From: Owenia fusiformis
Lineage: Eukaryota
Assembly: GCA_903813345.2 (NCBI GenBank)
Contig: CAIIXF020000001.1
Coordinates: 5,704,001-5,768,000 of the forward strand
Direction of reading: 5' to 3'
Length of the DNA: 64,000 bases
Shown here: positions 11,335 through 41,000 of the stretch, in pieces
Layout: each line of letters starts with the position of its first letter
Position numbering within the stretch: position 1 is the stretch's first letter
Notes under the pieces: generated by a model
What the model was told of the DNA's origin: nothing
The model's database searches: none
Seen by the model: the letters and a program-made list of their open reading frames with translations, nothing else
Program-made: the position numbers and the translations under genes

Positions 11335-11512
11335 CAGTAAAACTTGTGTATAGTGAACATTTTTTTGCCAAGAAAAAACGTTCACTGTAGGTAGGTGTTC
11401 ACTAGAGAGAGGGTAATTTATACAGAAGTCAGTGGACTATGTGCGTAGGAAGGGTGTCCACTAGGGATAGGTGTTCACTAGAGAGAGGTGTTCACTAAGA
11501 CAGGTTTTACTG
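11335..11512. mobile_element. Tc1/mariner-pogo-like MITE
   Basis: TA|cagtaaaacttgt … acaggttttactg|TA; internal gtgttcacta repeats. Confidence 0.75.
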
Positions 11513-12002
11513 TATATAAGATTACAAGGAAATTATAGGTAGGTCATTTGTGCATGATGCTTGGAATTTTGTCAGCCCCTATAGATCTGATTCTGCCTTT
11601 AATTACAAAATTTTAGTTTTTGGCTTGCATGGTTTAAAACTGGACCTATGACAGAGCTTTTGAAACATGCTAGGTTTGTTGAAAGACAGACATTTGGATG
11701 GAGGGACAGTTAAGTGAGTTATTGCAATAGGTAGATAGGTCACACCACATTCTTATTGTATGGATGTAAATGGTTTATTTGCCAAATAAACATTTCAAAA
11801 ATTTTACATCAAAATGGTTGGGGCTATATTCTGAACAATGTCTACATCATTATTATTATTGGTGGTAATTGTTACTAAAATAATTTACAATCAAGTAACT
11901 ATTGATCAGCTGGAACTATGTATTAAGTGGGATCTGGGAATAAACAAGTCCACAGATACTCTTCACACTTCAATAATTATTAAATATAAAGAGGAGCTCA
12001 AG

Positions 12003-12887
12003 TTACTGAAACAAGTCATTAAGATAATCATTCATTTCTTCCTCTCTTGATTTTTCCTCTTGTATTTTGACTGGGCCAGACCATATTGAAGTTATCTCCT
12101 GGCATTTGGGTGCTTCAGACTCCTTAGTGTTAGATATCTGAGGCTCAACCCATGTTGGACTGTAACGCCCACTCTCATGTCGATCTTTCTCTGAAGTTTT
12201 CATCTTTTTATGACTTTTCCTTTTAGTTACTTCTTTCTTTTTGTGATGATAGTTCAGTTTATATGAGCAGTCTGCACAAAGTCGCAATTTCACAAGAGCA
12301 TTTTTCTTTGTCCCTTTCTCTATATAACCAAAGTTCACCTCCCATGTCCTCAGACCTTCTTGCACCGTACACTTTTTATTTCCACATACGAACTGCCCTT
12401 TTCCTTCTATTACCTCCTTCTCTATGCACCATCTTAAAGCAACCTTATTTTCTTTATAGCGACTTAGATCACAGATGGCATATTCTTTGAAAAGTTTTGT
12501 ATAATATTTCTTAGCAAGTCTTCTATCCCATGTGTCATCAGCTTCACCTTCATCCTCATCCCAAAGGAACTGATGGTTTTCACGAATCACATCAATATCT
12601 CTTTTATCTTTACGTGTATCTCGATAAATGTCTTTCATAGAGCCACCATAATACTGTATATAATTGTTCACTAACTGTTTATGACGTGCAAATGCATCTA
12701 AAGATAAATTGTGGAATCTATGGATTTTTCCTTCCTCTTTATTGTACTGATCTGTTACTTCATGTTTGGAAGCTATGCCACTTGTTGAGTGCTTAGCTTT
12801 AGGGATCAGATCACTACGCTTTCTTTTTTTCCTTTCAATGTCACTATCATTTTCAAATTCAGACCCATAGTCTCCATTGTATGCCAT
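12003..12887 (-). CDS. FRA10AC1: Protein FRA10AC1 homolog (spliceosome-associated), 294 aa, intronless CDS
   Basis: Continuous ORF MAYNGDYGSEFEND...DYLNDLFQ with hallmark motifs DVIRENHQFLW, RLAKKYYTKLFKEYAICDLSRYKENKVALRW, GKGQFVCGNKKC and WEVNFGYIEKGTKKNALVKLRLCADCSYKLNY. ATG context tcaaaaATGG. Minus-strand AATAAA at 11774-11779. Confidence 0.95.
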   Translation of the reverse strand: MAYNGDYGSEFENDSDIERKKRKRSDLIPKAKHSTSGIASKHEVTDQYNKEEGKIHRFHNLSLDAFARHKQLVNNYIQYYGGSMKDIYRDTRKDKRDIDVIRENHQFLWDEDEGEADDTWDRRLAKKYYTKLFKEYAICDLSRYKENKVALRWCIEKEVIEGKGQFVCGNKKCTVQEGLRTWEVNFGYIEKGTKKNALVKLRLCADCSYKLNYHHKKKEVTKRKSHKKMKTSEKDRHESGRYSPTWVEPQISNTKESEAPKCQEITSIWSGPVKIQEEKSREEEMNDYLNDLFQ

Positions 12888-12952
12888 TTTTGAAAAATAA
12901 ATTTCAAATAAAATATGGAGATGATAGATGATAGAGTACTTGGGTGCAAATT

Positions 12953-15900
12953 CTACTCCAATTTGTTTTCTTCCTGGAATTTTTTCTCCCAATCTGCTTC
13001 TCGCTTTTTCTCCATTATTTCAATACACTTCTGAAGCTTCACTCTCTGAAACAGATTTAAAAAAGAAAATGTACATATATTTAGATGCAGGAAGCAACAT
13101 GAACATTTGGTAATCTTAAGTTAATAAAAACAATCTATGATAAATAATATCAGAAATTCATCATGTCATCTATCCCTGATCCTCTATGTTAGTTTCAAAG
13201 CACAGTGCTATAACCTTCTATGTAAATGATAAGTTATTAATATTACTGATTATTGCAGGATTCATACTTTTACAAGTAGCAGGAAAATTCAATTATATAT
13301 GTATATATATTACACGGCTTTGTATAAAAAACTTTGTACGTCATACCCACATACCAAGGTACGACAGGAGATTGAATAAGCTTAATATTTTAATAAAAAT
13401 TGAACCCTTCAAAGACTGTATCATGCACCATGTCTATGGGTAAGAGGTACAAGGTTTATTATACAAAGCCATATTACACTTACATTTTCTACACTATCTC
13501 CATGAAACAGTTCTTTCTGAAAGAAAAAATAGCATTTTTAATAATGTAATAATATAAGATCTATTTGCCAAGCTAAAGTACTTCATCAATCTTATGGGAT
13601 GCTCCCTTATTGACATTATTTAATAATAGGACTGAATCCTGAGAATAATATTTGAACACTTTTATCAGAGAATCCCAAGCCAACCAATCTGCAGTCTTTA
13701 CAGTGCTAGTGCACAAGTTACTTTATTTTTTCTTTCTGAGCAATATTCCTGACAACATTGATATGATTGGTAACAGTATAATATTCCAATAATAAATAAT
13801 TATAAATCTATATGATGATATCAGTTAAGTGATTTTTACACTGAGCACCAAAGACACTGGGATTAAAAAGAGCTTTCTATATGAAGAAAAGAATAATTTT
13901 ATACTTAATATTTAAAGAATTTGGGAAATAATCATGTGATAAAGGTCCATGTGCAGTATGGCAAGTGATTTTAGACTGTCATATCTTTCACCATGAGTAC
14001 TTTCTGGGCATAAATACAATGTTTTTTTATTAAAACAATGTTTTGTTTCAAGTGAAGTACCCATGATGATAAAAATATCAATCGAACATTTCGAAAAATT
14101 ACGAATAGGGACCCCATGTCAACAATTTTTTCAAAATGTTGAACATATTTACTAAAACGAGGATCTCCCTTTTCTGATTTTTATTGCATGAAAAGATCAC
14201 TTAAAAAGGGTTCTAAAACTTCTTCAAAAGTAGAATGGTATTTAAAGTCTAGTTTTGAAGATATCAATTTCCGATGACCAAAATTATGCTGAAAACAATA
14301 GCACAAGTTTTCCCTATGGGAATATAACATATGTGGTTTTTAACTTTAACACATTTCAATACCAATCCCCTTTTCAGAAGTTGTAAATATAGTGTAGAAG
14401 AAACTTTTTATATGGCTAAATCGTGAAAAACGAGATCCTCTTTTTAGAAAATAAGCCTAACATTTTTTAAAAAGTGCCCAGATGGGGACCTAAACCATAA
14501 TTTTCAGAGAGTTGGATTGATATTTTACTATCACTGGAACTTCACTTGAAAGAAAACATATTGTTTTTATATTTATATTTATTATTACAATATTTATGGG
14601 AAATGAGATAATTTATGCTTGAAGAAGACTAGATACTGACAAAGTATCATTTCTGTCATTATTACACTTTGACTTTAATTAGCTCTAGAGCTTCCAATTC
14701 TAGGCTGTTTCAAATCTAAAAAATTCTCAGTCATCCCCAACGCCCTCCCCCTTCTGACGCCAATGTATAGTATGGATATAGGATGAATTATAACAAACTA
14801 CACAATATACATACTCTTTTAGACATCATCCAAGACTCAAAGGACTCTGGCTGATTGAAATACCAAAACAAGGTTACTGGAAATGTCATGTAACATCCCA
14901 TCTGAAATAAAAGTTAAATTTTATGATTACTCAATTCACTATAGTCAAAACAGTAATGTTTGTGAGTACTTTGAATTTAAAAAATAAGAATTTAAAAAAT
15001 AAGCAATCAAATTACCAAATTGAAACAATTTATGTAAAAATAGAAACATTTATATTTATCCTAACTTTTGTATAGTTTTGTTTGTTTTCTAGTTTAGCTA
15101 TCATATCTGTGTCCTCTTATATTTTGATACTTCTCTGCCATGTTATTTTTGGAAAAATTAACATGGCTGAAACTCCCAAAATTACAAAAGGCCACAGCTT
15201 TGCTGCACATTATACATTACTATCTGAAATATACAAAAGTTAGGATAAATATAAATGTTTCTATTTTTACATAAATTGTTTCAATTGGTCATTTGATTGC
15301 TTATTTTTTAAATTCAAAGTACTCACAAACATTACTGTTTTGACTATAAATAGCATCTTAAAATCGTAAAATGTTCTAGGAAGTGGCCCACCCTCAAAAA
15401 TATGCTGAATTTTCAAAATGCCGTTCTGCCATTTTGAAATCTGTCACGAGTAAATAAGGTTACCTGATGTTGCTTTCTGGGAGTCAATCCTTCTTGGATC
15501 ACAAACATGGCGATTCATGAAAACATTCGTTTGATTTGGTAGGAATTTATCCATCATTTGCAGGTATGAAGCTTTGGATTCATTTATTGTGCTACTTAAA
15601 GTCAATGGGAATTATTTTTCTTCCGCTTGGGAGAGTTTGAGACACGAAACTTAGAATTTAGCTCATTGTGCCAACTTTTGAGGGTTGAGATTTATTTTTG
15701 CACCCCACTTTAAGGTGTACAGCTGGAAAATAACATTTTGGTAAAAAATTGCTATACCAGCACATGTTATTTTCTGGTACAAAATAAAGTATAAAGGCAT
15801 GTGTCAATTTCCTTGCTTTTTTCAGGAAAGTATCATTACATTGTCTTCTTTTATAATATCTGGGAGGAGTTCAATGGGAACTCCAGGAAATTCTGATATT

Positions 15901-18900
15901 TCACACTTTCTATTTTTCCAAATTTTCTTTCAAAGTTTCCAGACAACACAGAAGCTACCATTGACTTAACCAAACCCGTCTGGCCCAGTAATCTACTCCC
16001 GATTCTGAATTGTCGTAGATCTAGGGCCAGACAAGGTCCAATGCAAAAAAGGGGATATTTACTCCGGAAAAAACACACTGCTGAATCATCACTTATTATT
16101 CATTCCCTATTAGCCATCCAACCAAAACATCGGGTACCATGTAAACCCAAGTATTTATTTGAAATAAAGAGAACATAACTTACGCGTTAATGTGGTGTTT
16201 TGTTTGTTATATTGATGTTGAAATGGGCACAACATTTCGTCAATATTTTGTCAGTTCTCCGCACCGAATAAAGTCACGTAATACGAGTGTGACGCGATAA
16301 TTTTTAAACTTTCATGGAACGAAAATACATTTCCCGGGAATCAATACATTCCAAATATTACGATTTGTTCAGCAGATTTGTTATCAAAACATAGATTACT
16401 TTATAAAACAGACGTGTCTGTGTTGTATTTAAACTGGAAAGAAATATGGTGGGCATTAAATACGATTTTTCAATTTGTTGAACTGACGGAATGTAGTACT
16501 GAACGAAATAAGCAGCCAAGACTTCTCGATATTCTACGAGATCACGAACAGATTGCAGAAGAATTTTTCTTTTTGCTGCGTTTAGACGTTTCGTTCTTAT
16601 TTATTAGCCGTCATCCAGCGATGGAAACCTAATATAAATACAAAGTTTGATACAAGGAACAAACACGTAAGTGATTTTTATGATGTTTATTCATTTATCA
16701 GCACGTATTATACATTGAAAAACCAGTGTGTTTTTTCCGGAGTAAATACCCCATTTTTTGCATTGGATCGAGTCTGGCCCAGATCTACGACGTCAGGAGT
16801 AGATAACTGGGCCAGACGGGTTTGGTTACCATTGACTTACTCGAGTCTCTAGCCAATACTTGGCTAGAGGGGATTTCATCTGGAATACTGTGAACTCCAT
16901 TTGAAAAAAGCTGGCCGCCGTGTCATAATTTTATTGAATATTTTAAAAATCACCAGATAAATAAATCATTAATCAAAACGGACCCCGCTCAGCTCCTTAA
17001 TGAGATCATGGGCTAGTGATCTAGTTGAAAGCCCATGATGAGATATGACATGATTTCATCAGGATTTCGTCTAAAATTAAAACAAAATGGCTCCAAGAAA
17101 AATGGTGATGTTCGAAAACTGGACAAAATGTTGTTAATGTCTGATATTAGTAACTGGCTGTAAATTCTAAGTTAGCGATCCAGAAGATGTGAACTAATAC
17201 ACTGATCACTTTATTTGTGTTTTGGAATTTTTGGTGAGGTAATAAGACCAAAACTCGCAATTCAAATTGCTGCCCTGTCAACCCTCACGCATTAGGCGTG
17301 ATTGTCACGCATTTGCTGGAAAGATAGAAATCACGCATCAATTTAGCGTGTATGATCAAATATCACGCATTTTTATGATCAAATATCACGCAAATCACGC
17401 ATTTTGCTGAAATTTTAAAAATCATTTTTTGTGAAATGCCGATACGGTAAAATACTGAACGGCGAAAAAAAGCGAACGCATTCCGTTCAGTCTTTGCACG
17501 CGATTGCCGTTTATGTCACGCATTTGGTACAAAATATGTGTACAGACAGTGCTTGAGCAAAGCTCCATTTTTCTGCTGGTCATACGGACTGCCAATTTTG
17601 GGCATTTTTGATACTTCCGGTATTTCGGCCAATCAAATTCCTGGAGACATATACCCTAGCTGTTTCCTCGAGAAACTGATTTTAGACCAATCAAAATCTT
17701 CGAATTATATCATGTTAAATTACTCGCTTTAGCGAAAACGGAGAGGAAACTAAAAATGAAATTTCGTAAACTTTTTCATCAAATTGATGATTCAGAATCA
17801 TTGTATTCAAGGTAAGCAAATTGTACTTAAAGAAGCTACTTCGTTTTTGTGCCGGACATTCATAAGTTGGGGTAATCTGAGATATGGTGTCCATGCCGGT
17901 CAAATTGACCATCAGTTTTTAAACTCAGCTGGTCCGTTCTATGAATCTGTCAGTCATGACCGACGGACCGACGCTTAGTTCAAGCACTGTGTACAGTGGG
18001 GGACAAAAATAAAACTCAACGTTCACAAGTTGTCACAATGAGCTTATTTCAAATTGAATATTCACATGTTATGCCGACTCTTCAAATGTTGAGGTGATTA
18101 TTATTCAACTTTTGAAGTTCTTATTTGTCATTAGGGACACAAATTCCACTATATTTGGACTTACTAAGACGGAGAAAATAGAGCACTGAATACGCCGAGG
18201 TAAGAATTTATTACATGTGCGACAGCATGTAATTTTCATAGCTTTTGCAATTCTTTATGATCCCCACTGTAAATCACGCATTTGTTTCGAAAATATTCAA
18301 ACCTTCTGATTGAAAAACTGATTTCAGACTTGAAGTACAGTTGGGGACATAAATAAATGACAGGTGGATTTGCTGAAGTGAGGATTTCCCATGTTAAAAA
18401 TAAGAGAATTTACAAGAGGCCATAAATCAGTGGATGAGATTATACAAAATGTAAGATATACAAATTTTAAGGGATATGTATCTAGACAATATTTGAAATT
18501 ATGGGCTTTCAGACCACCATACTACTTTTTTCAAGGCCTGACTGCGCCGCTAACATGCTAAATATAAGAGTTAGCTGACGTTTGGGAGTCTGACTTACCT
18601 TCTAAAGGTTAGAACCCGAATCTTAATGAAACCATATCACCTTTGTTGCGTCGATGATGATGCATAAACATAGCATTTGATAGAAATTAGCGTAAATGCT
18701 TTTCCGACTTTTTCATTTTTCATCAATGTTGACTTCCGGGAAGGCGTTGTAGTTATCACGAAATAACGCATTGACCCTTGAACTTTACTTTGTTGACGTG
18801 TCAACCAAGCATGTCTGGTGTGAAAATTAAAAGAATATTAAGCAATGTTCTACATCCGCCAAGCTAAGTGAAGTAGTCAATATTTAAAATTACCAATTTC

Positions 18901-19492
18901 AAGTGAAGTACGCAACGAACGAAACTGCGTGATCTACACTCCCACTATTGGTCTGAATGAAATGCTACGTAGAAATATGAGCCGTCTGCTGTATTAGTCG
19001 ATTAATAGAGTAAGACCTGTTGGTGATGCTTTATAATTTAGACCAAAACATTGAAGAACGAACCTGTAAATCGTGAAAACAACGAACAAATATTCGGTTT
19101 TCACATATGTTCGATAATTTTTCGTATTGAAACTTCCGGAACTTACAAGGAAATCATTCATTTTCTCGATCCATGATTTACCTCTTGGATGTTGTGGCAA
19201 ATGCTCCATGGTTGACGGAACAAAGGTGATATGGTTTCATTAAGATTCGGGTTCTAACCTTTAGAAGGTAAGTCAGACTCCCAAACGTCAGCTAACTCTT
19301 ATATTTAGCATGTTAGCGGCGCAGTCAGGCCTTGAAAAAAGTAGTAATTAGGAAATGGTGATCGAAAATCGACCTGTCATTTATTTTTGTCCCCAACTGT
19401 ACCTTCCAAATCTTATGCTAGATCTATGTACTAATCTTAGTAACAACACAATTTATGATTACCTTAAATATTTCTAAAGCCCAATTCCCCAT
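12953..19492 (-). CDS. PET100: PET100 cytochrome c oxidase assembly factor homolog, 80 aa; complement(join(12953..13045,13484..13516,14815..14901,19463..19492))
   Basis: Four exons with GT-AG, phase-0 junctions: MGNWALEIFK | MGCYMTFPVTLFWYFNQPESFESWMMSKR | KELFHGDSVEN | RVKLQKCIEIMEKKREADWEKKFQEENKLE*. Matches recalled human PET100 (MGVKLEIFR MIIYLTFPVAMFWVSNQAEWFEDDVIQRK...). Absent from the ORF track because the exons are short. Confidence 0.9.
14940..15348. mobile_element. Foldback/MITE with ~120-bp inverted arms next to the PET100 exon 2 acceptor
   Basis: tatagtcaaaacagtaatgtttgtgagtactttgaattt… / …aaattcaaagtactcacaaacattactgttttgactata. Confidence 0.8.
15967..16828. mobile_element. Mutator-like non-autonomous element with 9-bp TSD
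   Basis: ~110-bp TIRs (taaccaaacccgtctggcccagt… / …actgggccagacgggtttggtta) flanked by CCATTGACT at 15958-15966 and 16829-16837. Confidence 0.8.
18338..19399. mobile_element. Tc1/mariner-like MITE (outer element) containing a nested insertion
   Basis: TA|cagttggggacataaataaatgacaggt … acctgtcatttatttttgtccccaactg|TA. Confidence 0.75.
18522..19344. mobile_element. Young TA-flanked non-autonomous element with ~125-bp apparently perfect TIRs (inner element)
   Basis: ctacttttttcaaggcctgactgcgccgct…atatcacctttgtt mirrored at 19219-19344. Confidence 0.85.
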
Positions 19493-20098
19493 TGCTTGAT
19501 ATATATCGTAAAGACTAGAAGATGATGAATTTTATTTTATTTCATAATGAAAACTCCACAGATGGCGCTGTTGAAAAGGCAGATGTATGATTGACTGAAA
19601 TAATGTTTTATCGATGCCATCCCGAGCTGTAGAACAGAATTTAAATTTTATTTGGTTTATCTTATATATACATAATTCTATAAAAATTATGAAACCGTAC
19701 AGGTTGCTTCAAATATCATGTTGATCTTGAAAGGGATCTTGAGTTTGAAATCTAGTGAAACATGTTTAAAATCCGAATAGATGGCGGAAAAAGTGGTCAG
19801 AATGCCGGGGTCAGAATATGGATTATTAAATCATATGTAATTTTAGGTACATATATATTTTTTTAACAACGGAAATACACGAACAAACAAATTGTACCAA
19901 GTTAGGATCCTAAAGATGGCTATGTGCAAATAAAGTAAACGTTTACCACCCTTGTTAGTTTCGTTCAGTGTAAATATACCTCGCTATAACCAACTTAGTA
20001 CAATTTGTTTGTTCGTGTATTTCCGTTGTTAAAAAAAACACACGTGAAAATCCAAAATATTAATATATCATTCGTTTACTCAAATAGAGAAAGAGAAA
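19493..20098. promoter_or_regulatory. Putative bidirectional promoter between PET100 (-) and NOP2 (+)
   Basis: The two start codons are about 600 bp apart, head-to-head. AGATGGCG (YY1-like) motifs near 19560, 19780 and a related AGATGGC near 19914. Confidence 0.6.
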
Positions 20099-23000
20099 AT
20101 GGGACAGAAGCGGGACTTTACAGAGAGACTAAAGAGAGGACCAGGCAGATCGTCAAAGAAGCAAAAACCGCCTCAGATGCCTGTTCAATTTCGTAAAGAT
20201 GAAGGTAAAAATTCAAATTCAGCTCTAGGGTTATCTTGTTCCAACACCATCCTCTTCGTCTCTGGTCTTGGAGGGGATCCATTGAAACATACAGTATTTT
20301 TCAAAAGTCGAAATTTAACGGCGTTAGGTACGCATATATTTTTTACCTCTATCGACTTTTACACCAAAAGAAATGTTCTCCCCAACGACGTTTTTTATTA
20401 TACATTTTATCAAAACATTCTTCTTTCCATTCTTTTCTAGCTACATTATTGCACAAAACTGGAAGATGTAGACAATATTGGGATAGTCATATAAATCCGA
20501 CTGTTGTATGCTGTTCTTCGATGTTCCTTGTTCCTTGTTCTTATTTGGATATTTTTAGATTTTACATCATTTTCTTAAAGCATACACGGTCGTAGATATG
20601 ACAGCTAACATATTGCGGGAAACGCTTTCCTGGCCTGTCTGGATAACCATACCAACCAAAGTCACACAAATTATCGACTTATTATTTTGCTCCAACATCA
20701 AAGTGTTAAGGTCAGGGTGCATGATGGGAAATTTTCTGCATCCTTCAATTGAGTCACATGTTATTTTTCAAACAAGAATCACTCCTTCCCCACATTGTCT
20801 ACACCTTCCAAGTTTGCACAAAGAGTGCACTTATGTGCCTAGAAAAGACTTGTGAGAAGATTTGTTTTGTAAAATGTATAAAAAACGAGAAAATTCAGTG
20901 AAAAAAATTTCTGAAAATTTTCTGAATTTTTTCACTGAATTTTCTTGTTTTTTATACACTTTATCAAAACATTCTTCTCACAAGTCTTTTCTAGGCACAT
21001 AAGTGCACTCTTTGTGCAAAAGTGAAAGATATAGACAATGTGGGGAAGGAGTGATTCTTGTTTGAAAAATAACATGTGACTCAATTGAGGGATACAGAAA
21101 ATTTCCCATCATGCACCCTGACCTTAAATCTTACCTTAGACATGTAAAACGCTTCATAATTGACAAAATATAATCAATTGAAGTATATTTTCATTATCGC
21201 CCGCCATATTGCTAAATGTTGTTTACGGTAGTCTAAATGTAAAACTATATCGAAACGGAATCATAATTATTCATTACACAGAGATTCAAAAGCCGTTCTC
21301 TCATACTACTCACTTTTCTCATTTCTGAAACAATAACTTTTCCACGTACCAAGCGTTTTACGTGCCTAAGGTTAAATGCTCCAGGGCTCAAGGGATAACC
21401 CCTGGTGCAGTATGAATGCTCACAGTGCTATTTGTTATGAAACCTTCACCACTGTTTTCCAGGGTCATAGACTCATAGAAACAGGTACTTATGGAATGAA
21501 ATTATTTTAGCCTGCACATGTTATTTTCTGGTACAAAATAAAGTAAGAATATATGCATGTTTTTCCTAGCTTTTTTGAGGAAAGTATCATTACATTGCCT
21601 TCCTTTAGTAAAACTATAAACAGGTCAATGGTAACTCCAGTGTTGTCAAGAAACTTTGAGAAAAAATTAGAAAGCATGAAATATCAACATTTCCTGGAGT
21701 TACCATTGACCTCTTATCACACACAACACAACCAATTAAGACATTATGGAATTTGCCAGATAATGTCCTGATCACTGAAGTGAAGAATTCTAACTTGATG
21801 GTTGGAGCAGCTGGGTATACTTGCTGACAGTTAGTTGTTCTGTTGATTTTTTCAATATACAAAATGTTTATAATATTCCATGTTTTTCAGATGAAGCACC
21901 TAAAAACCTTTCCAGTAGAGCCAAAAAGAGGTAATATTTAGTATACTCTGTGTTATCCATTCTTATTTATTATTGATGGGAAAAACTTACTTGCTGGGTA
22001 TATGAGGGGGGGGGGGTACTTTATCTTACACTTAGTTTTCACCTTATGAATCACAAGAAAGTGGTGTCACAGCTGGGACCTGGCACTTTTGGGTCTACTT
22101 ATCTAATTCCAAGACTTGAAGCCTTTAGAGGGTTTAATTTCCACCTACTTTATAAATGTTGAAAATTGACGGTGTTAGATATGCATATATTTCTAATATA
22201 AAGTGGGTTTGATTTTATGTTTATATATATTTGACATGTATCAATTATGAGGATTGTAACTTGATATTAGTATAAACTTAATTATCCCGACAATACACAA
22301 AAGCGTGGTTTTAAGGTTGGGAGAATTTGGCGGCAGGGCACGCCTTAAGCGTCGGACAGCTGGTCATTATCTGGTTACTTTTGATACTGACCAGTTGATT
22401 TTTTCACTAGGTATAGGAAAATAACATTGCAACTGGTCAGTAATGCCTTTTTGACCAGCAGCTCTGGAATCCTTAGGGCATACACTGTTTGGCGGACCAA
22501 TGAAAATTTGTCCCATTTAATGCGATGCATAGAAGAAGATATTTATGTTAATTTCCATGTCTTTGTCGCGTAAAAATCTATTGAAGCAATGTTACTTCTG
22601 CAAAATTCAAGACTGAGTGATGGTACCCAAAAACCTTGAACAAAAGTCTATTAATGCAAGTTACTGAGATATAGCTTGTTGCAAGGGTTCACATTTTTTG
22701 ACCATCCTGTAGATCATTTTTGAAGTGAATGTGTTTCCGTTTAACTTTCTAGGATGAAGAATCGTTTAAAGAAGAAAGCCTCACTTGAAGCAGGAAAAGC
22801 CAAGAAGCCAATTAAGAATGTAGTAGACCTTGGCAGTGGAGGAGAGAAGAGTGATAGTGGTAAAAAATGTTTTCAACTAACTTGAAGTTCATTTTCTCTT
22901 TGTCTTTGTCTACTCCCAGAGGCCTAAGATGATATAGTTTGATTATTCTCACTACTGACCATTCGTCAGTCAAGGTGAAAACACTTAATTACCAGTTGAT

Positions 23001-38000: not shown

Positions 38001-41000
38001 AATGAATGTCTGAATACATATTTCCAAACTTTACATGGGGACTTTAAGGTTTGACCTGTAACAGGGGGACAGGACTTATTTGACACCCTATATACTGTAT
38101 ATACATTGTATATTGCTTTACTTACTCCTCACAGCGTACTGTTTTGGGGTCTACCACCATATCATCATTGGTGTCACAATTCACACGTTGAGGTTGGCCA
38201 TTTGTGCAAGTAATGTAGGAGTTACAATCTCTGAAGCATCTGATCCCATTTGGTTGGTTGGGGCAGTCATCACAGGGTGAGACAGCCACTGTAGAGGGAA
38301 CTTGTGTAGCAACTGTAGAGGGAACTTGTGTAGCACAGTTGTCTCTTGTACCACAGGGTGGACAGACATCTGGTATACTACAAACACAATGTATATGAAG
38401 AGGCTAATTGCACTTTCTACTGACAGCGTGTGAGTGAAGAGCTGTTGCTGAAATGTTGCCTTTTTACTGTAATATTGTCCTTTGTGTTTTTTTTGTGGTT
38501 TTTGTACTTTCAAAGGGAATGATCGGAAAACTGGTCTGTATCAGAATACATTGCCATCTGTTACCATATCTTTCATAATGGTAGATGGGAAATGGGAATC
38601 GTCTTGAACTTTTTATTTTCTATGAATTCAGTATGTGTTTGTGTAAGTATGTTCACAGCACATTTATCTTCGATAAAGATTTTTTCCATTTTCACTTGAC
38701 TTTATAGTGGTGTGGTGCCAAATCACACCATGAGTGCAGATTTTGCCAAAAGGAGACAATACTTACTACTTCCTAATAATCTTTGTCATGTTATGTACAA
38801 AATGATGAGGTTTTATAAAATATATTTTGTTTTGTGGGATTTGCTACTCCAGGGAGTTGCTGTTTTTCTAGTTCTATAAATATTAATGGTAAATGTCATA
38901 CTATACATTCATTTTAAGTAAAAATACTTACAGTGCACATTCCAGGGTGTCTGGGTCTACTACGAGGTTAGCGTCACATGTCACTCTGATAAGAAGACCT
39001 TCAAGACATTCATGATACTCCTTACAGTTGATGAAACACTTAGTTCCACTTGGTGCATTGGCACAGTCATCACACAATGATGGACGTTGGGATGTAGCAA
39101 TTGTTGGAGCACTTGTTGTAGTAGTTGTGGTAGGGGGTGGAGGTGGCTGAGTGGTGGGCTCAGGAGGAGTGGGGGCCTCTGTTGTTGTGGTTGGTTCTGC
39201 AGGGGGGGTAGTGGCAGGTATGGCTGTTGAGAGACTGGCTGTTCCACATGGAGGAAGTACCTCAGCTATCCTATATATTATGAATATATCAAAACTTACA
39301 GGTTCATCTACATCAATAATCTGCAAAAGGCTAACAGCCCATTTAAAGCAGATATATATAGCAGGTTATATTTCAACTTTCTAGTATGATTTATTTTTCC
39401 AATGAACAAAGTTCAGGTTCAAAAATGTGTCCTATCAATCTGTTCATCTGGCCAGACATTCTTTGCAAACTGAATGTGATTTCAGTAGGTAGATCTGCTG
39501 TTGAAGAATAGTTTTTAGTAGATATAGAACTGTCTGTATTCATTGATTTTGAATGAGCTCATGTGTTGAAGAGCATAAGCTCATATTGGTGGATTATCAA
39601 ATTACCAACCCAAAATATATCAATAATGGCTCATGTCTAGAGACATGAAGTTAAATTGTTAGTAATTAGATTATTTGTCAGGGGGTCATTAACAGAACTT
39701 TCGCAAAGTTACAAATTCATAATGCGTTACTTTATGAAATTCGTAAATATTTAAAAAATTACGATTGACTTACGAATTCGTAAAGTTACGAATCAGCCAT
39801 TAACAGAATGCTTTCGTAAGTCATTCATAAGTTTTATCGTTTGTAAACAAATTTAAAATTGTGACGTCATCTTATATCATTATTTAGCACAAATAAAAAT
39901 ATGATGTCATTTGATATCATTGCGCGTTGTGATTAAACCTGTCTCCGCGATTTCAAAGATTCCCAGCTCAGAAACATATTTGCTTATCATGTAAGAATAG
40001 GTGGATATTTTAGCTTGAAACTTAACATGCATATAAAGAACAATTTCTTTTTGCCAACCTGTATACCTTACATAAGAACTTGATGAGAAATTTGCCATTC
40101 GCAAAGTTATGAAAGGGTCTGAGGTGCTATTTAAGTTACGAACGAAAGCATATGTGACGTCATTTTTTCGTAACTTTGCGAATCGTTCGTAACTTTGCGA
40201 AAGTTCTGTTAATGCACATTTACCAAATTCGTAAAATTAACAATTGACTTGCGAATTCGTAACTTAACAAAAGTTCTGTTCATGGCCCCCAGATTAATTA
40301 AAACCAATTTGTGATAACATTTGAGGTAATATCCTTTAGATTCAGAGGTCTCTTCTGAGTAATTGTAATTAAGATATCTGCAACTTTATTATCCCATCGA
40401 ACGAAGTTCGGAGGGATATAGGGAACGCCTCCGTCCGTCCGTCCGTCCGTCCGTACGTCCGTCCGTCCGTCCGTCCGTCCGTCCGTCCGTCCGTCCGTCC
40501 GTCCGTCCGTCCGTCCGTCCGTCTGTCCGTCCGTCCCGATTTTGTTCATATTTCGTACATATATACCCTATGGGGGTAGAAGTTCTGCTCGAAAGCCGGT
40601 TTTCAAAATGGCCGCTCATTTCAAAATGGCGGCCATTTTAGTGCCGATTTTACAGTAATTTAGGTGTAATATGTAAAACTGTAATAGCAATATGTTTTAA
40701 ATGTAAAAAAATTATAAAGGACATTAATAATGCTACAAATGTAGATATTAAAGAAGCACATGGCAGCCATCTTGAAAAATGGCGGCCTTTACTCGTCATT
40801 TTACGATTTTTGCTATAACTCAAAAAATAGTGGAGCGATTTTGTTCATATTTGGTATGTGAATACTATAAGCATTGCACACTGTCTAAAGACACTTTTGG
40901 TAGAAGGCGGCCATTTTTCAAAATGGCCGCCATTTTAACATATTTTACTATAACTCGAAAAGTAGTGGAGCGATTTTGTTCATATTTGGTATGTGAATAC

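What the first reader, a model, noticed from the sequence alone, without database searches (positions are those of the whole stretch)
12003..19492. Candidate bicistronic PET100-FRA10AC1 transcription unit
Seen: the PET100 stop (TAG, 12953-12955) is followed after 65 nt by the FRA10AC1 ATG (12885-12887), same strand, different frame. The U-rich spacer has no ATG, no AATAAA and only one AG (cccaag, no pyrimidine tract before it), so there is no obvious polyA site or cis/trans-splice acceptor between the ORFs. A plausible polyA signal lies about 225 nt past the FRA10AC1 stop (11774). All PET100 introns are phase 0, so exon skipping cannot fuse the frames. Known: in human these are separate genes, for a complex IV assembly factor and a spliceosome-associated protein. 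Inference: one mRNA encodes both. With eight AUGs in the PET100 CDS, simple leaky scanning is unlikely, pointing to reinitiation after an 80-codon functional ORF or internal initiation on the spacer.
Basis: partly seen in the sequence, partly recalled or inferred. Interest (0 to 1): 0.9.

Follow-up and report, generated by a model that had tools for sequence, protein, structure and literature searches.

The report
Two-gene PET100–FRA10AC1 messenger RNA in a mollusc
In this mollusc-like animal, one spliced messenger RNA carries a small mitochondrial assembly gene (PET100) and, 65 bases later, a complete intron-free copy of the splicing-associated gene FRA10AC1, a rare two-genes-on-one-message layout that raises the question of how the second protein is made.

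Summary
On the minus strand, a 4-exon PET100 gene (80 codons, stop 12953-12955) is followed after 65 nt by an uninterrupted 294-codon FRA10AC1 ORF (ATG 12885-12887).

Stranded RNA-seq of the same species label (2 raw runs), plus transcript contigs from 2 other studies, confirm all three PET100 splice joints. Read depth is unbroken from PET100 exons 2-4 through the spacer into FRA10AC1. Intron 3 is essentially empty, and no start or end cluster lies between the ORFs. One mature bicistronic mRNA is therefore the main form (about 0.9).

FRA10AC1 looks like a working gene. It matches Pfam over the full domain, and 7 of 11 listed polymorphisms are synonymous. It lacks the introns seen at recurrent positions in 34 of 80 related loci, so it is probably a retrogene lodged in PET100's last exon.

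How ORF2 is translated was not tested. Nine upstream AUGs argue against leaky scanning. An indel in the spacer rules out a fusion protein. The spacer shows no structure or IRES family match. My best guess is low-level termination-reinitiation. Conservation in relatives could not be shown.

The parts
19463..19557 (-). PET100 exon 1: 5'UTR of about 62-65 nt (holding a 2-codon uORF ATG at 19545) plus the first 10 codons (ATG 19492-19490).
   Evidence: Sequence. Molecule ends cluster at 19554 and 19557 in both raw RNA runs, and 111 and 61 reads support the joint 14901/19463. ATG list.
14815..14901 (-). PET100 exon 2 (29 codons, the conserved membrane-helix core).
   Evidence: Pfam PF09803, E 2.8e-10. 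Joints 14901/19463 and 13516/14815.
13484..13516 (-). PET100 exon 3 (11 codons).
   Evidence: Joints 13516/14815 (119 and 55 reads) and 13045/13484 (103 and 60 reads) in X19 and X21, with the same joints in X1 and X5 contigs.
12953..13045 (-). Coding part of PET100 exon 4 (30 codons plus TAG at 12955-12953). It is the start of the terminal exon, which runs on through the spacer and FRA10AC1.
   Evidence: Sequence. End-to-end profile match of the spliced 80-aa product. No splice joint downstream of 13045.
12888..12952 (-). Inter-ORF spacer: 65 nt in the window and 64 nt in the commoner RNA allele. It is 75% A+T with 3 G, no ATG, no AATAAA and no significant fold.
   Evidence: Fold z-score -0.85. 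No Rfam match. Depth 211-219 (X19) and 90-100 (X21). Four SNPs and a 1-nt deletion.
12003..12887 (-). Intron-free FRA10AC1 ORF, 294 codons plus TAA. The AUG has A at -3 and G at +4.
   Evidence: Pfam PF09725, E 8.8e-53. 1452 homologues, with mollusc names at the top. 7 synonymous and 4 conservative changes among 11 listed SNPs. It is the longest stop-to-stop ORF in the 64-kb window.
11711..12002 (-). 3'UTR with unsettled end(s). Depth falls about 5-fold within about 100 nt after the stop. A small cluster of molecule ends lies at 11820. AATAAA is at 11778-11773. Contigs reach 11711 (X1) and 11576 (X5).
   Evidence: Part of the drop may come from the 95% likeness filter acting on a divergent haplotype (8-nt deletion at 11990 in the X5 contig).

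Best explanation
This is a natural bicistronic nuclear gene of a lophotrochozoan; the best protein hits are bivalve and gastropod molluscs.

**Transcript.** One promoter, with starts near 19554-19557, drives a transcript that is spliced three times. Its last exon carries the end of the PET100 ORF, a 64-65-nt unstructured, U/A-rich, AUG-free spacer, and a complete FRA10AC1 ORF.

**Origin of ORF2 (inference).** FRA10AC1 is most likely a processed, retroposed copy that came to lie in PET100's terminal exon. With no intron behind the PET100 stop codon, the message carries no exon junction that would mark it for nonsense-mediated decay.

**Translation (inference).** PET100 would be made by ordinary cap-dependent initiation at the first well-placed AUG. 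FRA10AC1 would be made at a much lower rate. A fraction of 40S subunits would stay on the mRNA after terminating at the PET100 UAG, scan the spacer and start at the next AUG, which is the FRA10AC1 start in a strong context. This would give a high-PET100, low-FRA10AC1 ratio.

**Odds by step.** The single mature mRNA is the main form: about 0.9. FRA10AC1 here is a working coding gene: about 0.85. Its protein comes mainly from this bicistronic mRNA: about 0.6. The route is reinitiation rather than internal entry: about 0.6 of that share.
For: **Shown**
- Anatomy.
- Family identity of both ORFs.
- Three exact splice joints: 103, 119 and 111 reads in X19; 60, 55 and 61 in X21.
- Strand: almost all exonic reads have the first mate on +, as expected for a minus-strand RNA in a dUTP-type library.
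- Depth, by my arithmetic from the bins and position rows. In X19: exon 2 about 165-185, exon 3 about 150-165, exon 4 about 178, spacer 211-219, ORF2 199-278, intron 3 0.5. In X21: 84-126, 64-84, 87, 90-100, 109-148 and 0.6.
- No start or end cluster was listed between 12800 and 13100.
- The X5 contig (833 nt) covers 12334-13045 and then the joints to exons 3 and 2. The X1 contig (313 nt) covers 12854-13045 and the same joints. With the raw runs, that makes three studies (P7, P1, P3).
- ORF2 is under constraint. 7 of 11 listed SNPs are synonymous, where 19% of sites are synonymous (P = 0.0014; P = 0.02 if 30% is assumed). The four replacements are K>Q, T>S, V>I and T>S. ORF2 holds all 75 columns that are invariant in an 18-sequence alignment that includes it. 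Its tree branch is 0.72 against a median of 0.44, within the range of other lineages.
- Leaky scanning is disfavoured: 9 AUGs lie upstream and the PET100 AUG has G at -3 and G at +4.
- The ORF2 AUG is the first AUG after the PET100 stop, with A at -3 and G at +4.
- Retrogene reading: 34 of 80 related loci show intron-like breaks at recurrent positions (near residues 90, 120, 150-155, 160 and 200), and the window ORF crosses all of them unbroken. PET100 next door has three introns, and ORF2 is the longest ORF in 64 kb.

**From the literature**
- Reinitiation after long ORFs exists. It gives 3-20% efficiency in caliciviruses and is used by some retrotransposons (PMC10275272, section 9 read in full).
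- Human LINE-1 has a 63-bp inter-ORF spacer and low-frequency reinitiation for ORF2 (PMC4091050, passages).
Against: - Short reads and unitig-like contigs do not prove single molecules. The tool itself warns that a contig across two genes shows no single transcript.
- Depth rises towards the 3' half of ORF2 (1.3-1.6 times that of the PET100 exons). This is ordinary 3' bias, but it could hide ORF2-only RNAs with scattered 5' ends. Start clusters below a fifth of local depth are not listed, so a monocistronic isoform of up to about 10-20% is not excluded.
- There is no translation evidence of any kind.
- Reinitiation normally falls off after ORFs much shorter than 80 codons. Known long-ORF cases need a nearby element and a stop-start distance under about 20-30 nt (PMC10275272). 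Here the distance is 65 nt and no structure was found.
- The spacer is the most polymorphic stretch listed: 4 SNPs and 1 indel in 65 nt, against 11 SNPs in 885 nt of ORF2 (P = 0.015) and 0 in 243 nt of PET100 coding sequence. No specific sequence element seems to be kept there.
- No conservation was shown. None of 80 related loci carries a PET100-like ORF (best tblastn E 1.1). In the only named species found in both tables (Lineus longissimus), the two genes sit on contigs of different length (21.7 and 25.6 Mb).
- The organism's own genome could not be searched, so a second, intron-bearing FRA10AC1 copy cannot be excluded.
- No poly(A) remnant or convincing target-site duplication flanks ORF2.
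Confidence: 0.4

Rival explanations
1. The bicistronic RNA is real and abundant, but FRA10AC1 protein comes mainly from a minor monocistronic isoform. This isoform would start inside exon 4 or the spacer, or from a tissue- or stage-specific promoter not sampled here. A start just upstream of 13015 would leave only a 20-codon uORF ending 65 nt before the FRA10AC1 AUG, a layout that allows efficient ordinary reinitiation.
For: - Spacer depth slightly exceeds exon 2-4 depth in X19 (211-219 against about 150-185).
- ORF2 depth rises towards its 3' end.
- Only start clusters of at least a fifth of local depth are listed.
- The last PET100-frame AUG, at 13015, opens a 20-codon ORF.
- Only two raw runs of one study were laid.
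Against: - Intron 3 depth is 0.5-0.6, so there is no start upstream of exon 4.
- In X21 the depths of exon 4 (about 87), exon 2 (84-126) and the spacer (90-100) are equal, which leaves little room for such an isoform.
- No start cluster was listed between 12800 and 13100 in either run.
Confidence: 0.25
2. ORF2 is translated from the bicistronic mRNA by internal ribosome entry on the unstructured, A/U-rich spacer, independently of PET100 translation.
For: - The spacer is 75% A+T with 3 G, and its fold is no stronger than shuffles (z -0.85). An open landing pad of this kind fits the idea.
- The AUG lies in a strong context directly behind an A-run.
- IRES activity has been claimed for mouse LINE-1 inter-ORF regions (PMC4091050, passages).
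Against: - No Rfam IRES family matched.
- The spacer is highly polymorphic, including an indel, so no defined element seems to be conserved.
- By general knowledge, cellular IRES claims based on short A/U-rich spacers have often failed stricter controls.
Confidence: 0.17
3. ORF2 is a transcribed but untranslated passenger. It would be a fairly young processed copy of FRA10AC1 sitting in the PET100 3'UTR, while the working FRA10AC1 gene lies elsewhere in the genome.
For: - It is intron-free and lies in a 3'UTR position.
- It has 9 upstream AUGs.
- The own genome could not be searched for a parent copy.
- The end branch in the tree is somewhat long (0.72 against a median of 0.44).
Against: - The 294-codon ORF is intact and shows only 62% identity to the nearest other protein in a 5.8-billion-protein set. 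No closer paralogue turned up. That depth of divergence with an intact frame is not expected of a pseudogene.
- It keeps all invariant columns of the family alignment.
- Polymorphism is skewed to synonymous sites (7 of 11, P = 0.0014).
- No poly(A) remnant or target-site duplication is left, so the copy is old.
Confidence: 0.1
4. The locus is an operon-type unit that is resolved into two mRNAs by spliced-leader trans-splicing or cleavage. Alternatively, the two ORFs are fused by frameshifting or readthrough.
For: - The ORF2 frame stays open for 44 codons upstream of its AUG, into PET100 exon 4.
- A-runs lie in exon 4.
Against: - Depth shows no step at the spacer.
- There is a single AG with no pyrimidine tract.
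- No loose-end cluster at the spacer appears among the rows shown, although 669 rows were not shown.
- The commoner allele has a 1-nt deletion in the spacer, which changes the frame relation of the two ORFs from -1 to +1. A fixed frameshift or readthrough fusion is therefore excluded.
- No indel at 10% or more was seen in the exon 4 A-runs.
- The open upstream frame is explained by the low T content of exon 4. The spacer alone is open in 27% of shuffles.
Confidence: 0.03

Closest known systems
Mammalian SNURF-SNRPN and other cellular bicistronic mRNAs of animals, such as the Drosophila dicistronic genes (recalled, not read here; only lists papers that use the term)
   Same: One mature, capped and polyadenylated nuclear mRNA carries two non-overlapping, independently conserved ORFs. 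The upstream ORF is small (about 70-80 codons). The downstream ORF is longer and, as in SNURF-SNRPN, encodes a splicing-related protein. There is no trans-splicing.
   Different: The phylum differs (mollusc-like) and the gene pair is not in print: one paper holds both names and it is unrelated. ORF2 is an intron-free, probably retroposed copy lying entirely in the terminal exon. Translation of ORF2 has not been shown here.
Human LINE-1 bicistronic RNA (PMC4091050, passages read)
   Same: A long ORF1, a 63-bp inter-ORF spacer (64-65 nt here), and an ORF2 thought to be made at low frequency by unconventional termination-reinitiation. No IRES has been identified there, and the spacer is dispensable. 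Here too the spacer is variable and unstructured.
   Different: LINE-1 is a retrotransposon, whereas this locus holds two cellular genes. ORF1 there is far longer than 80 codons. LINE-1 ORF2 initiation does not depend on its AUG, whereas here a strong-context AUG is present. Nothing was tested here.
Calicivirus and influenza B TURBS termination-reinitiation (PMC10275272, section 9 and passages read)
   Same: A second ORF is translated after a full-length first ORF, giving a fixed low ratio of 3-20%.
   Different: TURBS needs stop and start within about 20 nt and a structured element with 18S complementarity. Here the distance is 64-65 nt and no significant structure was found. A UGGGA pentamer lies 32 nt before the stop (12991-12987); I recalled this motif, and a pentamer is expected by chance.
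Green-algal polycistronic loci translated by leaky scanning (PMC7896298 and PMC11892635; listing and start of abstracts only)
   Same: Transcripts that are exclusively polycistronic and carry conserved ORFs.
   Different: Leaky scanning needs a weak or skippable ORF1 start and few AUGs. Here ORF1 has a strong start and 9 AUGs precede ORF2.
Spliced-leader operons of nematodes, tunicates and others (recalled)
   Same: Closely spaced genes on the same strand under one promoter.
   Different: Those are resolved into monocistronic mRNAs. Here the mature RNA stays bicistronic, with no acceptor site and no step in depth.
Orphan retrogenes and retrogenes hosted in other genes (PMC3548309; listing and start of abstract only)
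   Same: An intron-free functional copy of a gene that carries introns in most other lineages, borrowing a host gene's promoter.
   Different: Hosted retrogenes usually sit in introns or gain their own promoter. Here the copy lies in the host's terminal exon and is expressed as a second cistron. Loss of the parent gene could not be tested.

Membership tests
PET100 (Pfam PF09803) | Profile match above the curated cut-off | tested here: met
   Exon 2 alone scores 40.8 bits against a cut-off of 24, E 2.8e-10.
PET100 (Pfam PF09803) | Full-length small protein (about 75-90 aa) with the conserved FPV..F..FNQP..W core and a charged C-terminal tail | tested here: met
   The spliced 80-aa product aligns over positions 1-78 of an 80-position profile built from 99 PET100 proteins, 98.9 bits. 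The invariant columns of A2 are present in that alignment.
FRA10AC1 (Pfam PF09725) | Profile match above the curated cut-off over the whole domain | tested here: met
   177.9 bits against a cut-off of 27, profile positions 2-118 of 118. 1452 homologues at E <= 0.001. 75 invariant columns shared with 17 relatives.
Cellular bicistronic (dicistronic) mRNA of animals | Two non-overlapping conserved ORFs on one strand with a short spacer | tested here: met
Cellular bicistronic (dicistronic) mRNA of animals | One mature, spliced transcript spans both ORFs, with no major internal 3' end or 5' start | tested here: met
   Even depth from exons 2-4 through the spacer into ORF2. Intron 3 depth is about 0.5. 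No start or end cluster between 12800 and 13100. Bridging contigs in two more studies. The limit is that these are short reads only, so isoforms below about 10-20% would not be seen.
Cellular bicistronic (dicistronic) mRNA of animals | Both ORFs are translated from that mRNA | not testable with these tools
   No ribosome profiling or proteomics was available. The only indirect evidence is constraint on ORF2.
Spliced-leader trans-spliced operon | A trans-splice acceptor before the downstream cistron, and mature monocistronic mRNAs | tested here: not met
   One AG without a pyrimidine tract. No step in depth, and no loose-end cluster at the spacer among the rows shown, although 669 rows were not shown.
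TURBS-type termination-reinitiation | Stop and restart codons within about 20-30 nt, with a structured upstream element that pairs with 18S rRNA | tested here: not met
   The distance is 64-65 nt. The fold z-score is -0.85. The criteria are taken from PMC10275272. 18S pairing was not tested.
Leaky-scanning polycistron (green-algal type) | A weak ORF1 start and few or no further AUGs before ORF2 | tested here: not met
   The ORF1 AUG has G at -3 and G at +4, and 9 AUGs precede ORF2.
Known IRES RNA families (Rfam) | Match to a curated covariance model | tested here: not met
   Only two weak miRNA-model hits elsewhere in 11400-20400, and nothing in the spacer.
Retrogene (processed gene copy) | Lacks all introns of the parental gene structure | tested here: met
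   Uninterrupted ORF. 34 of 80 related loci have intron-like breaks at recurrent positions. The taxa of those loci are unknown.
Retrogene (processed gene copy) | Poly(A) remnant and target-site duplications at the borders | tested here: not met
   The only flanking direct repeat is a 23-nt, 74%-identical A/T-rich pair (11777-11799 and 12886-12908), and there is no A-tract. This is expected if the event is old.
Retrogene (processed gene copy) | An intron-bearing parent gene elsewhere, or evidence of its loss | not testable with these tools
   No whole genome is held for this window.
Programmed frameshift or readthrough fusion | A fixed frame relation between the two ORFs | tested here: not met
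   A 1-nt deletion in the spacer is the commoner allele (181 of 211 and 73 of 91 reads). It changes the relation from -1 to +1.

The most novel reading that the evidence does not exclude
The only FRA10AC1 gene of this mollusc is an orphan retrogene with no promoter of its own. Its protein, needed by the spliceosome, is made solely as the second cistron of the PET100 mRNA. Ribosomes would finish an 80-codon ORF, scan about 65 nt of variable, unstructured spacer and restart, without any TURBS-like element. That would be a natural cellular case of long-ORF reinitiation at a distance, one that fixes the ratio of a mitochondrial assembly factor to a nuclear splicing factor.
Probability: 0.3. Interest if true: 0.8.

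Novelty: new member of a known kind. Interest (0 to 1): 0.6.

Why it matters
Mature bicistronic nuclear mRNAs that are not resolved by trans-splicing are rare in animals, and most were found by chance. I found no report of one in a bivalve or other mollusc (one search used the term mollusc, another the term bivalve; both returned only mitochondrial, viral or bacterial cases). I also found no paper that links PET100 with FRA10AC1.

The case is unusually clean:
- Both ORFs are full-length members of well-known families.
- The first ORF is long (80 codons), starts strongly and holds eight AUGs.
- The spacer is short, unstructured and polymorphic.
- The RNA evidence shows that the bicistronic form dominates.

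If ORF2 is translated from this message, the locus is a compact natural test bed for how eukaryotic ribosomes reach a downstream cistron after a long ORF. The reinitiation review calls the distance rules for cellular mRNAs unknown (PMC10275272).

The locus also shows a plausible way for such genes to arise: a processed copy lands in the terminal exon of a host gene, where it adds no exon junction behind the host stop codon. A human survey proposes immunity to nonsense-mediated decay as a common property of polycistronic transcripts (PMC3951408, abstract start only).

On the practical side, gene predictors may miss or mis-join such pairs.

Tried and rejected
1. **Own genome.** Not held, so there was no test for a second FRA10AC1 copy or for other bicistronic pairs.
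2. **Conservation in relatives.**
   - The scan of metagenome contigs gave 80 loci with FRA10AC1 relatives. tblastn with the spliced PET100 product found nothing (best E 1.1).
   - I checked 19 of the 80 loci, those whose match starts near the N-terminus, for upstream ORFs. None was PET100-like. Nine of the 19 have fewer than 180 nt upstream, so they are uninformative or too short.
   - The taxa are unknown and PET100 is short and divergent, so this negative is weak.
3. **PET100 searches.**
   - The 41-aa stop-to-stop frame around exon 2 shared too few words with any protein of 73-2000 aa.
   - HMMER over 1.84 billion representatives gave 24 hits, mostly intron read-through ORFs on short contigs.
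4. **Synteny from contig lengths.**
   - Cluster look-up of 8 PET100-like hits and 2 FRA10AC1 hits gave no shared contig length.
   - The profile search for PET100 listed mainly arthropods. Only one species (Lineus longissimus) appears in both tables, on contigs of different length.
   - No mollusc PET100 was among the 120 rows listed, so this test is uninformative for molluscs.
5. **Tree of 30 FRA10AC1 proteins** (chosen from the 120 listed). The window protein is unresolved among lophotrochozoans, so it gives no close sister and no dating.
6. **Retrogene borders.** No poly(A) remnant and no convincing duplication.
7. **Frameshift fusion.** Rejected because of the spacer indel.
8. **Earlier findings of the scan.** Nothing for this genome, sequence or relatives. 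The two retrogene notes from primate genomes have no bearing.
9. **Mollusc genome paper PMC10875847.** Its 'bicistronic' passages concern mitochondrial transcripts only.
10. **Supplementary files.** None was consulted, so lists of polycistronic loci in the supplements of the cited surveys were not seen.

Full report
**1. What is in the sequence**

The unit lies on the minus strand.
- PET100 has four exons: 19492-19463 (ATG at 19492), 14901-14815, 13516-13484 and 13045-12953 (TAG at 12955-12953). All three introns have GT..AG ends and are phase 0. The ORF is 80 codons.
- Exon 2 alone passes Pfam's Pet100 cut-off (40.8 bits against 24).
- The spliced product aligns from end to end with a profile that I built from 99 PET100 proteins of 74-90 aa (98.9 bits). 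The stop at 12953-12955 is therefore the authentic end of the protein.
- After 65 nt comes an ATG (12887-12885) that opens an uninterrupted 294-codon ORF ending at 12005-12003. It matches Pfam Fra10Ac1 over the whole domain (177.9 bits against a cut-off of 27) and has 1452 homologues. The top named ones are bivalve and gastropod FRA10AC1 proteins at 54-62% identity.
- The spacer has 28 T, 21 A, 13 C and 3 G. It has no ATG, no AATAAA and one AG.
- Eight ATGs lie in the PET100 CDS and one in the 5'UTR. The PET100 AUG has G at -3 and G at +4. The FRA10AC1 AUG has A at -3 and G at +4.

**2. Is it one RNA?**

No genome is held for the window, but public runs with the same species label exist. I laid two raw, stranded RNA-seq runs (X19 and X21, study P7) and the contigs of two runs from other studies (X1 from P1, X5 from P3) on 11400-20000.

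- **Splice joints.** The three joints appear exactly as predicted: 13045/13484 (103 and 60 reads), 13516/14815 (119 and 55) and 14901/19463 (111 and 61). Both contig sets hold them too, except that X1 lacks the exon 1-2 joint.
- **Transcript start.** Molecule ends at 19554-19557 mark the start.
- **Depth.** My arithmetic, from bin means scaled to exon length and from the per-position rows, is below.

| Feature | X19 | X21 |
|---|---|---|
| Exon 2 | about 165-185 | 84-126 |
| Exon 3 | about 150-165 | 64-84 |
| Exon 4 | about 178 | about 87 |
| Spacer | 211-219 | 90-100 |
| ORF2 | 199-278 | 109-148 |
| Intron 3 | 0.5 | 0.6 |

- **Internal ends.** No cluster of molecule starts or ends was listed between 12800 and 13100. 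The listing threshold is 5 molecules and a fifth of local depth.
- **Bridging contigs.** An 833-nt X5 contig runs from 12334 across the spacer and exon 4 into exons 3 and 2. A 313-nt X1 contig does the same from 12854.

The dominant mature RNA therefore carries both ORFs.

There are limits. These are short reads, and the tool warns that a contig across two genes does not prove one transcript. Depth rises towards the 3' half of ORF2, and a start used by fewer than about 10-20% of molecules would escape notice.

The 3' end is not settled. Depth drops about 5-fold within about 100 nt after the stop. Part of that drop may come from the 95% likeness filter acting on a divergent haplotype, since the X5 contig has an 8-nt deletion at 11990. 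A small end cluster lies at 11820, and contigs reach 11711 and 11576.

**3. Is ORF2 a working gene?**

- Of the 11 best-supported SNPs that one search lists inside ORF2, 7 are synonymous. The other 4 are K>Q, T>S, V>I and T>S.
- Only 19% of sites are synonymous, so P = 0.0014, or 0.02 with a generous 30%. These 11 are among the 40 rows shown; 286 more rows were not shown.
- The protein keeps all 75 invariant columns of an 18-sequence alignment that includes it.
- Its terminal branch in a 30-protein tree is 0.72 against a median of 0.44, inside the range of other lineages.
- No closer paralogue than 62% appeared among 5.8 billion proteins. That is only weak evidence that this is the sole copy.

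**4. Origin**

Among 80 loci from metagenome contigs that encode relatives, 34 show intron-like breaks. These recur near residues 90, 120, 150-155, 160 and 200 of the window protein. Another 14 are uninterrupted and full-length, most of them on short, transcript-like contigs.

The window ORF crosses all of these positions unbroken. It sits next to a gene with three introns, and it is by far the longest ORF in the 64-kb window (338 codons stop to stop; the next longest is 145). Loss of all introns at once is the signature of a processed copy. No poly(A) remnant or convincing target-site duplication survives, so the event would be old.

Because the copy lies wholly in PET100's terminal exon, no exon junction follows the PET100 stop. 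The message should therefore escape junction-dependent nonsense-mediated decay. This is my inference. A human survey proposes such immunity as a general property of polycistronic transcripts (PMC3951408, abstract start only).

**5. How could ORF2 be translated?**

- **Leaky scanning** is very unlikely: 9 AUGs precede ORF2 and ORF1 has a strong start.
- **A fusion by frameshift or readthrough** is excluded. The commoner allele in the RNA lacks one T at 12948 (181 of 211 and 73 of 91 reads), which changes the frame relation of the ORFs. The long open frame upstream of the ORF2 AUG is explained by the low T content of exon 4, and the spacer alone is open in 27% of shuffles.
- **Trans-splicing** is not supported. 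There is no acceptor and no step in depth.
- **A structured element** was not found. The spacer region folds no better than shuffles (z -0.85) and matches no Rfam family.
- **A conserved sequence element** is unlikely. The spacer is the most polymorphic stretch listed, with 4 SNPs and 1 indel in 65 nt.

Three possibilities remain.
- **(a) Termination-reinitiation.** Some 40S subunits stay on after the PET100 stop and scan to the next AUG, which is the FRA10AC1 start. The precedents are viral and retrotransposon cases (PMC10275272, section 9) and human LINE-1, which has a 63-bp spacer that is itself dispensable (PMC4091050). Against this, 80 codons is long for ordinary reinitiation, and TURBS-type systems need the stop and start within about 20-30 nt.
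- **(b) Internal entry** on the open A/U-rich spacer.
- **(c) A minor monocistronic isoform.**

I rank them (a) about 0.4, (c) about 0.25 and (b) about 0.17, with a silent passenger copy at about 0.1.

**6. Conservation**

This could not be established.
- No PET100-like ORF lies beside FRA10AC1 in any of the 80 loci (best E 1.1; upstream ORFs of 19 of them).
- Word-based and HMMER searches for PET100 gave no usable mollusc entries.
- In the one species named in both tables (Lineus longissimus), the two genes lie on contigs of different length.

The layout is therefore probably specific to this lineage, but its age is unknown.

**7. Comparison and verdict**

In form, this is a member of the small class of animal cellular bicistronic mRNAs.
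- From recall, SNURF-SNRPN has a similarly small upstream ORF and a splicing protein downstream, and Drosophila has many dicistronic genes.
- In likely mechanism it resembles LINE-1 more than TURBS viruses or the leaky-scanning polycistrons of green algae.
- The gene pair is not in print: one unrelated paper holds both names.
- I found no report of a nuclear bicistronic gene in molluscs.

The transcript-level claim is well supported. The translational claim is open and can be tested directly. The finding is real and moderately surprising, and I score its interest at 0.6.

Noticed in passing
window 11400-11686: A repeated element just beyond the 3'UTR. RNA depth is about 95-101 on both strands in both raw runs, contig depth is very high, and hundreds of reads have loose ends at 11469-11471 and 11514-11518. 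It looks like an abundant transcribed transposable element.
   Followed up: no
window 18520-18665 and 19201-19346 (PET100 intron 1): A 146-nt inverted repeat, 96% complementary. Many reads on both strands join 18519 to 19345, skipping 825 nt (70+131 reads in X19, 45+68 in X21). It is either a foldback or MITE-like element with shorter copies elsewhere, or a deletion polymorphism.
   Followed up: partly
window 14940-15348 (intron 1, directly upstream of exon 2): Nested inverted repeats: 57-nt arms at 95% and 133-nt arms at 77%, typical of a MITE. Another 57-nt pair lies at 16024-16080 and 16724-16780.
   Followed up: no
window 14901/15464: An alternative joint from an upstream donor at 15464 to the exon 2 acceptor. 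It was seen only in an X5 contig (depth 211, against 869 for the canonical exon 1-2 joint) and in no raw read. It may be a rare alternative first exon inside intron 1.
   Followed up: no
window 12888-12952 and 12948: The spacer carries 4 SNPs and a 1-nt deletion. The window's own allele (65 nt) is the minority form in the RNA data. The variant at 12921 creates a second AG, and none of the variants creates an AUG (my reading).
   Followed up: yes
window 12987-12991: A UGGGA pentamer lies in PET100 exon 4, 32 nt before the stop. I recall it as the core of the calicivirus TURBS motif 1. A pentamer is expected by chance in about 9% of 90-nt stretches, and the stop-start distance does not fit TURBS.
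   Followed up: partly
window 20048-20440 (+ strand): An open frame that includes a methionine followed by a basic, lysine- and arginine-rich stretch. It points away from PET100, about 540 nt upstream of the PET100 start. It may be the first exon of a divergent gene sharing a bidirectional promoter.
   Followed up: no
window 38928-39365 (- strand): A 145-aa open frame with a long Pro/Thr-rich, mucin-like run followed by a cysteine-rich block. It resembles an exon of a secreted mucin or chitin-binding-type protein. No search was made.
   Followed up: no
window 18052-18106: Reads join opposite strands here (20+18 and 10+4 reads in X19). This indicates a short hairpin or palindromic repeat in intron 1.
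   Followed up: no
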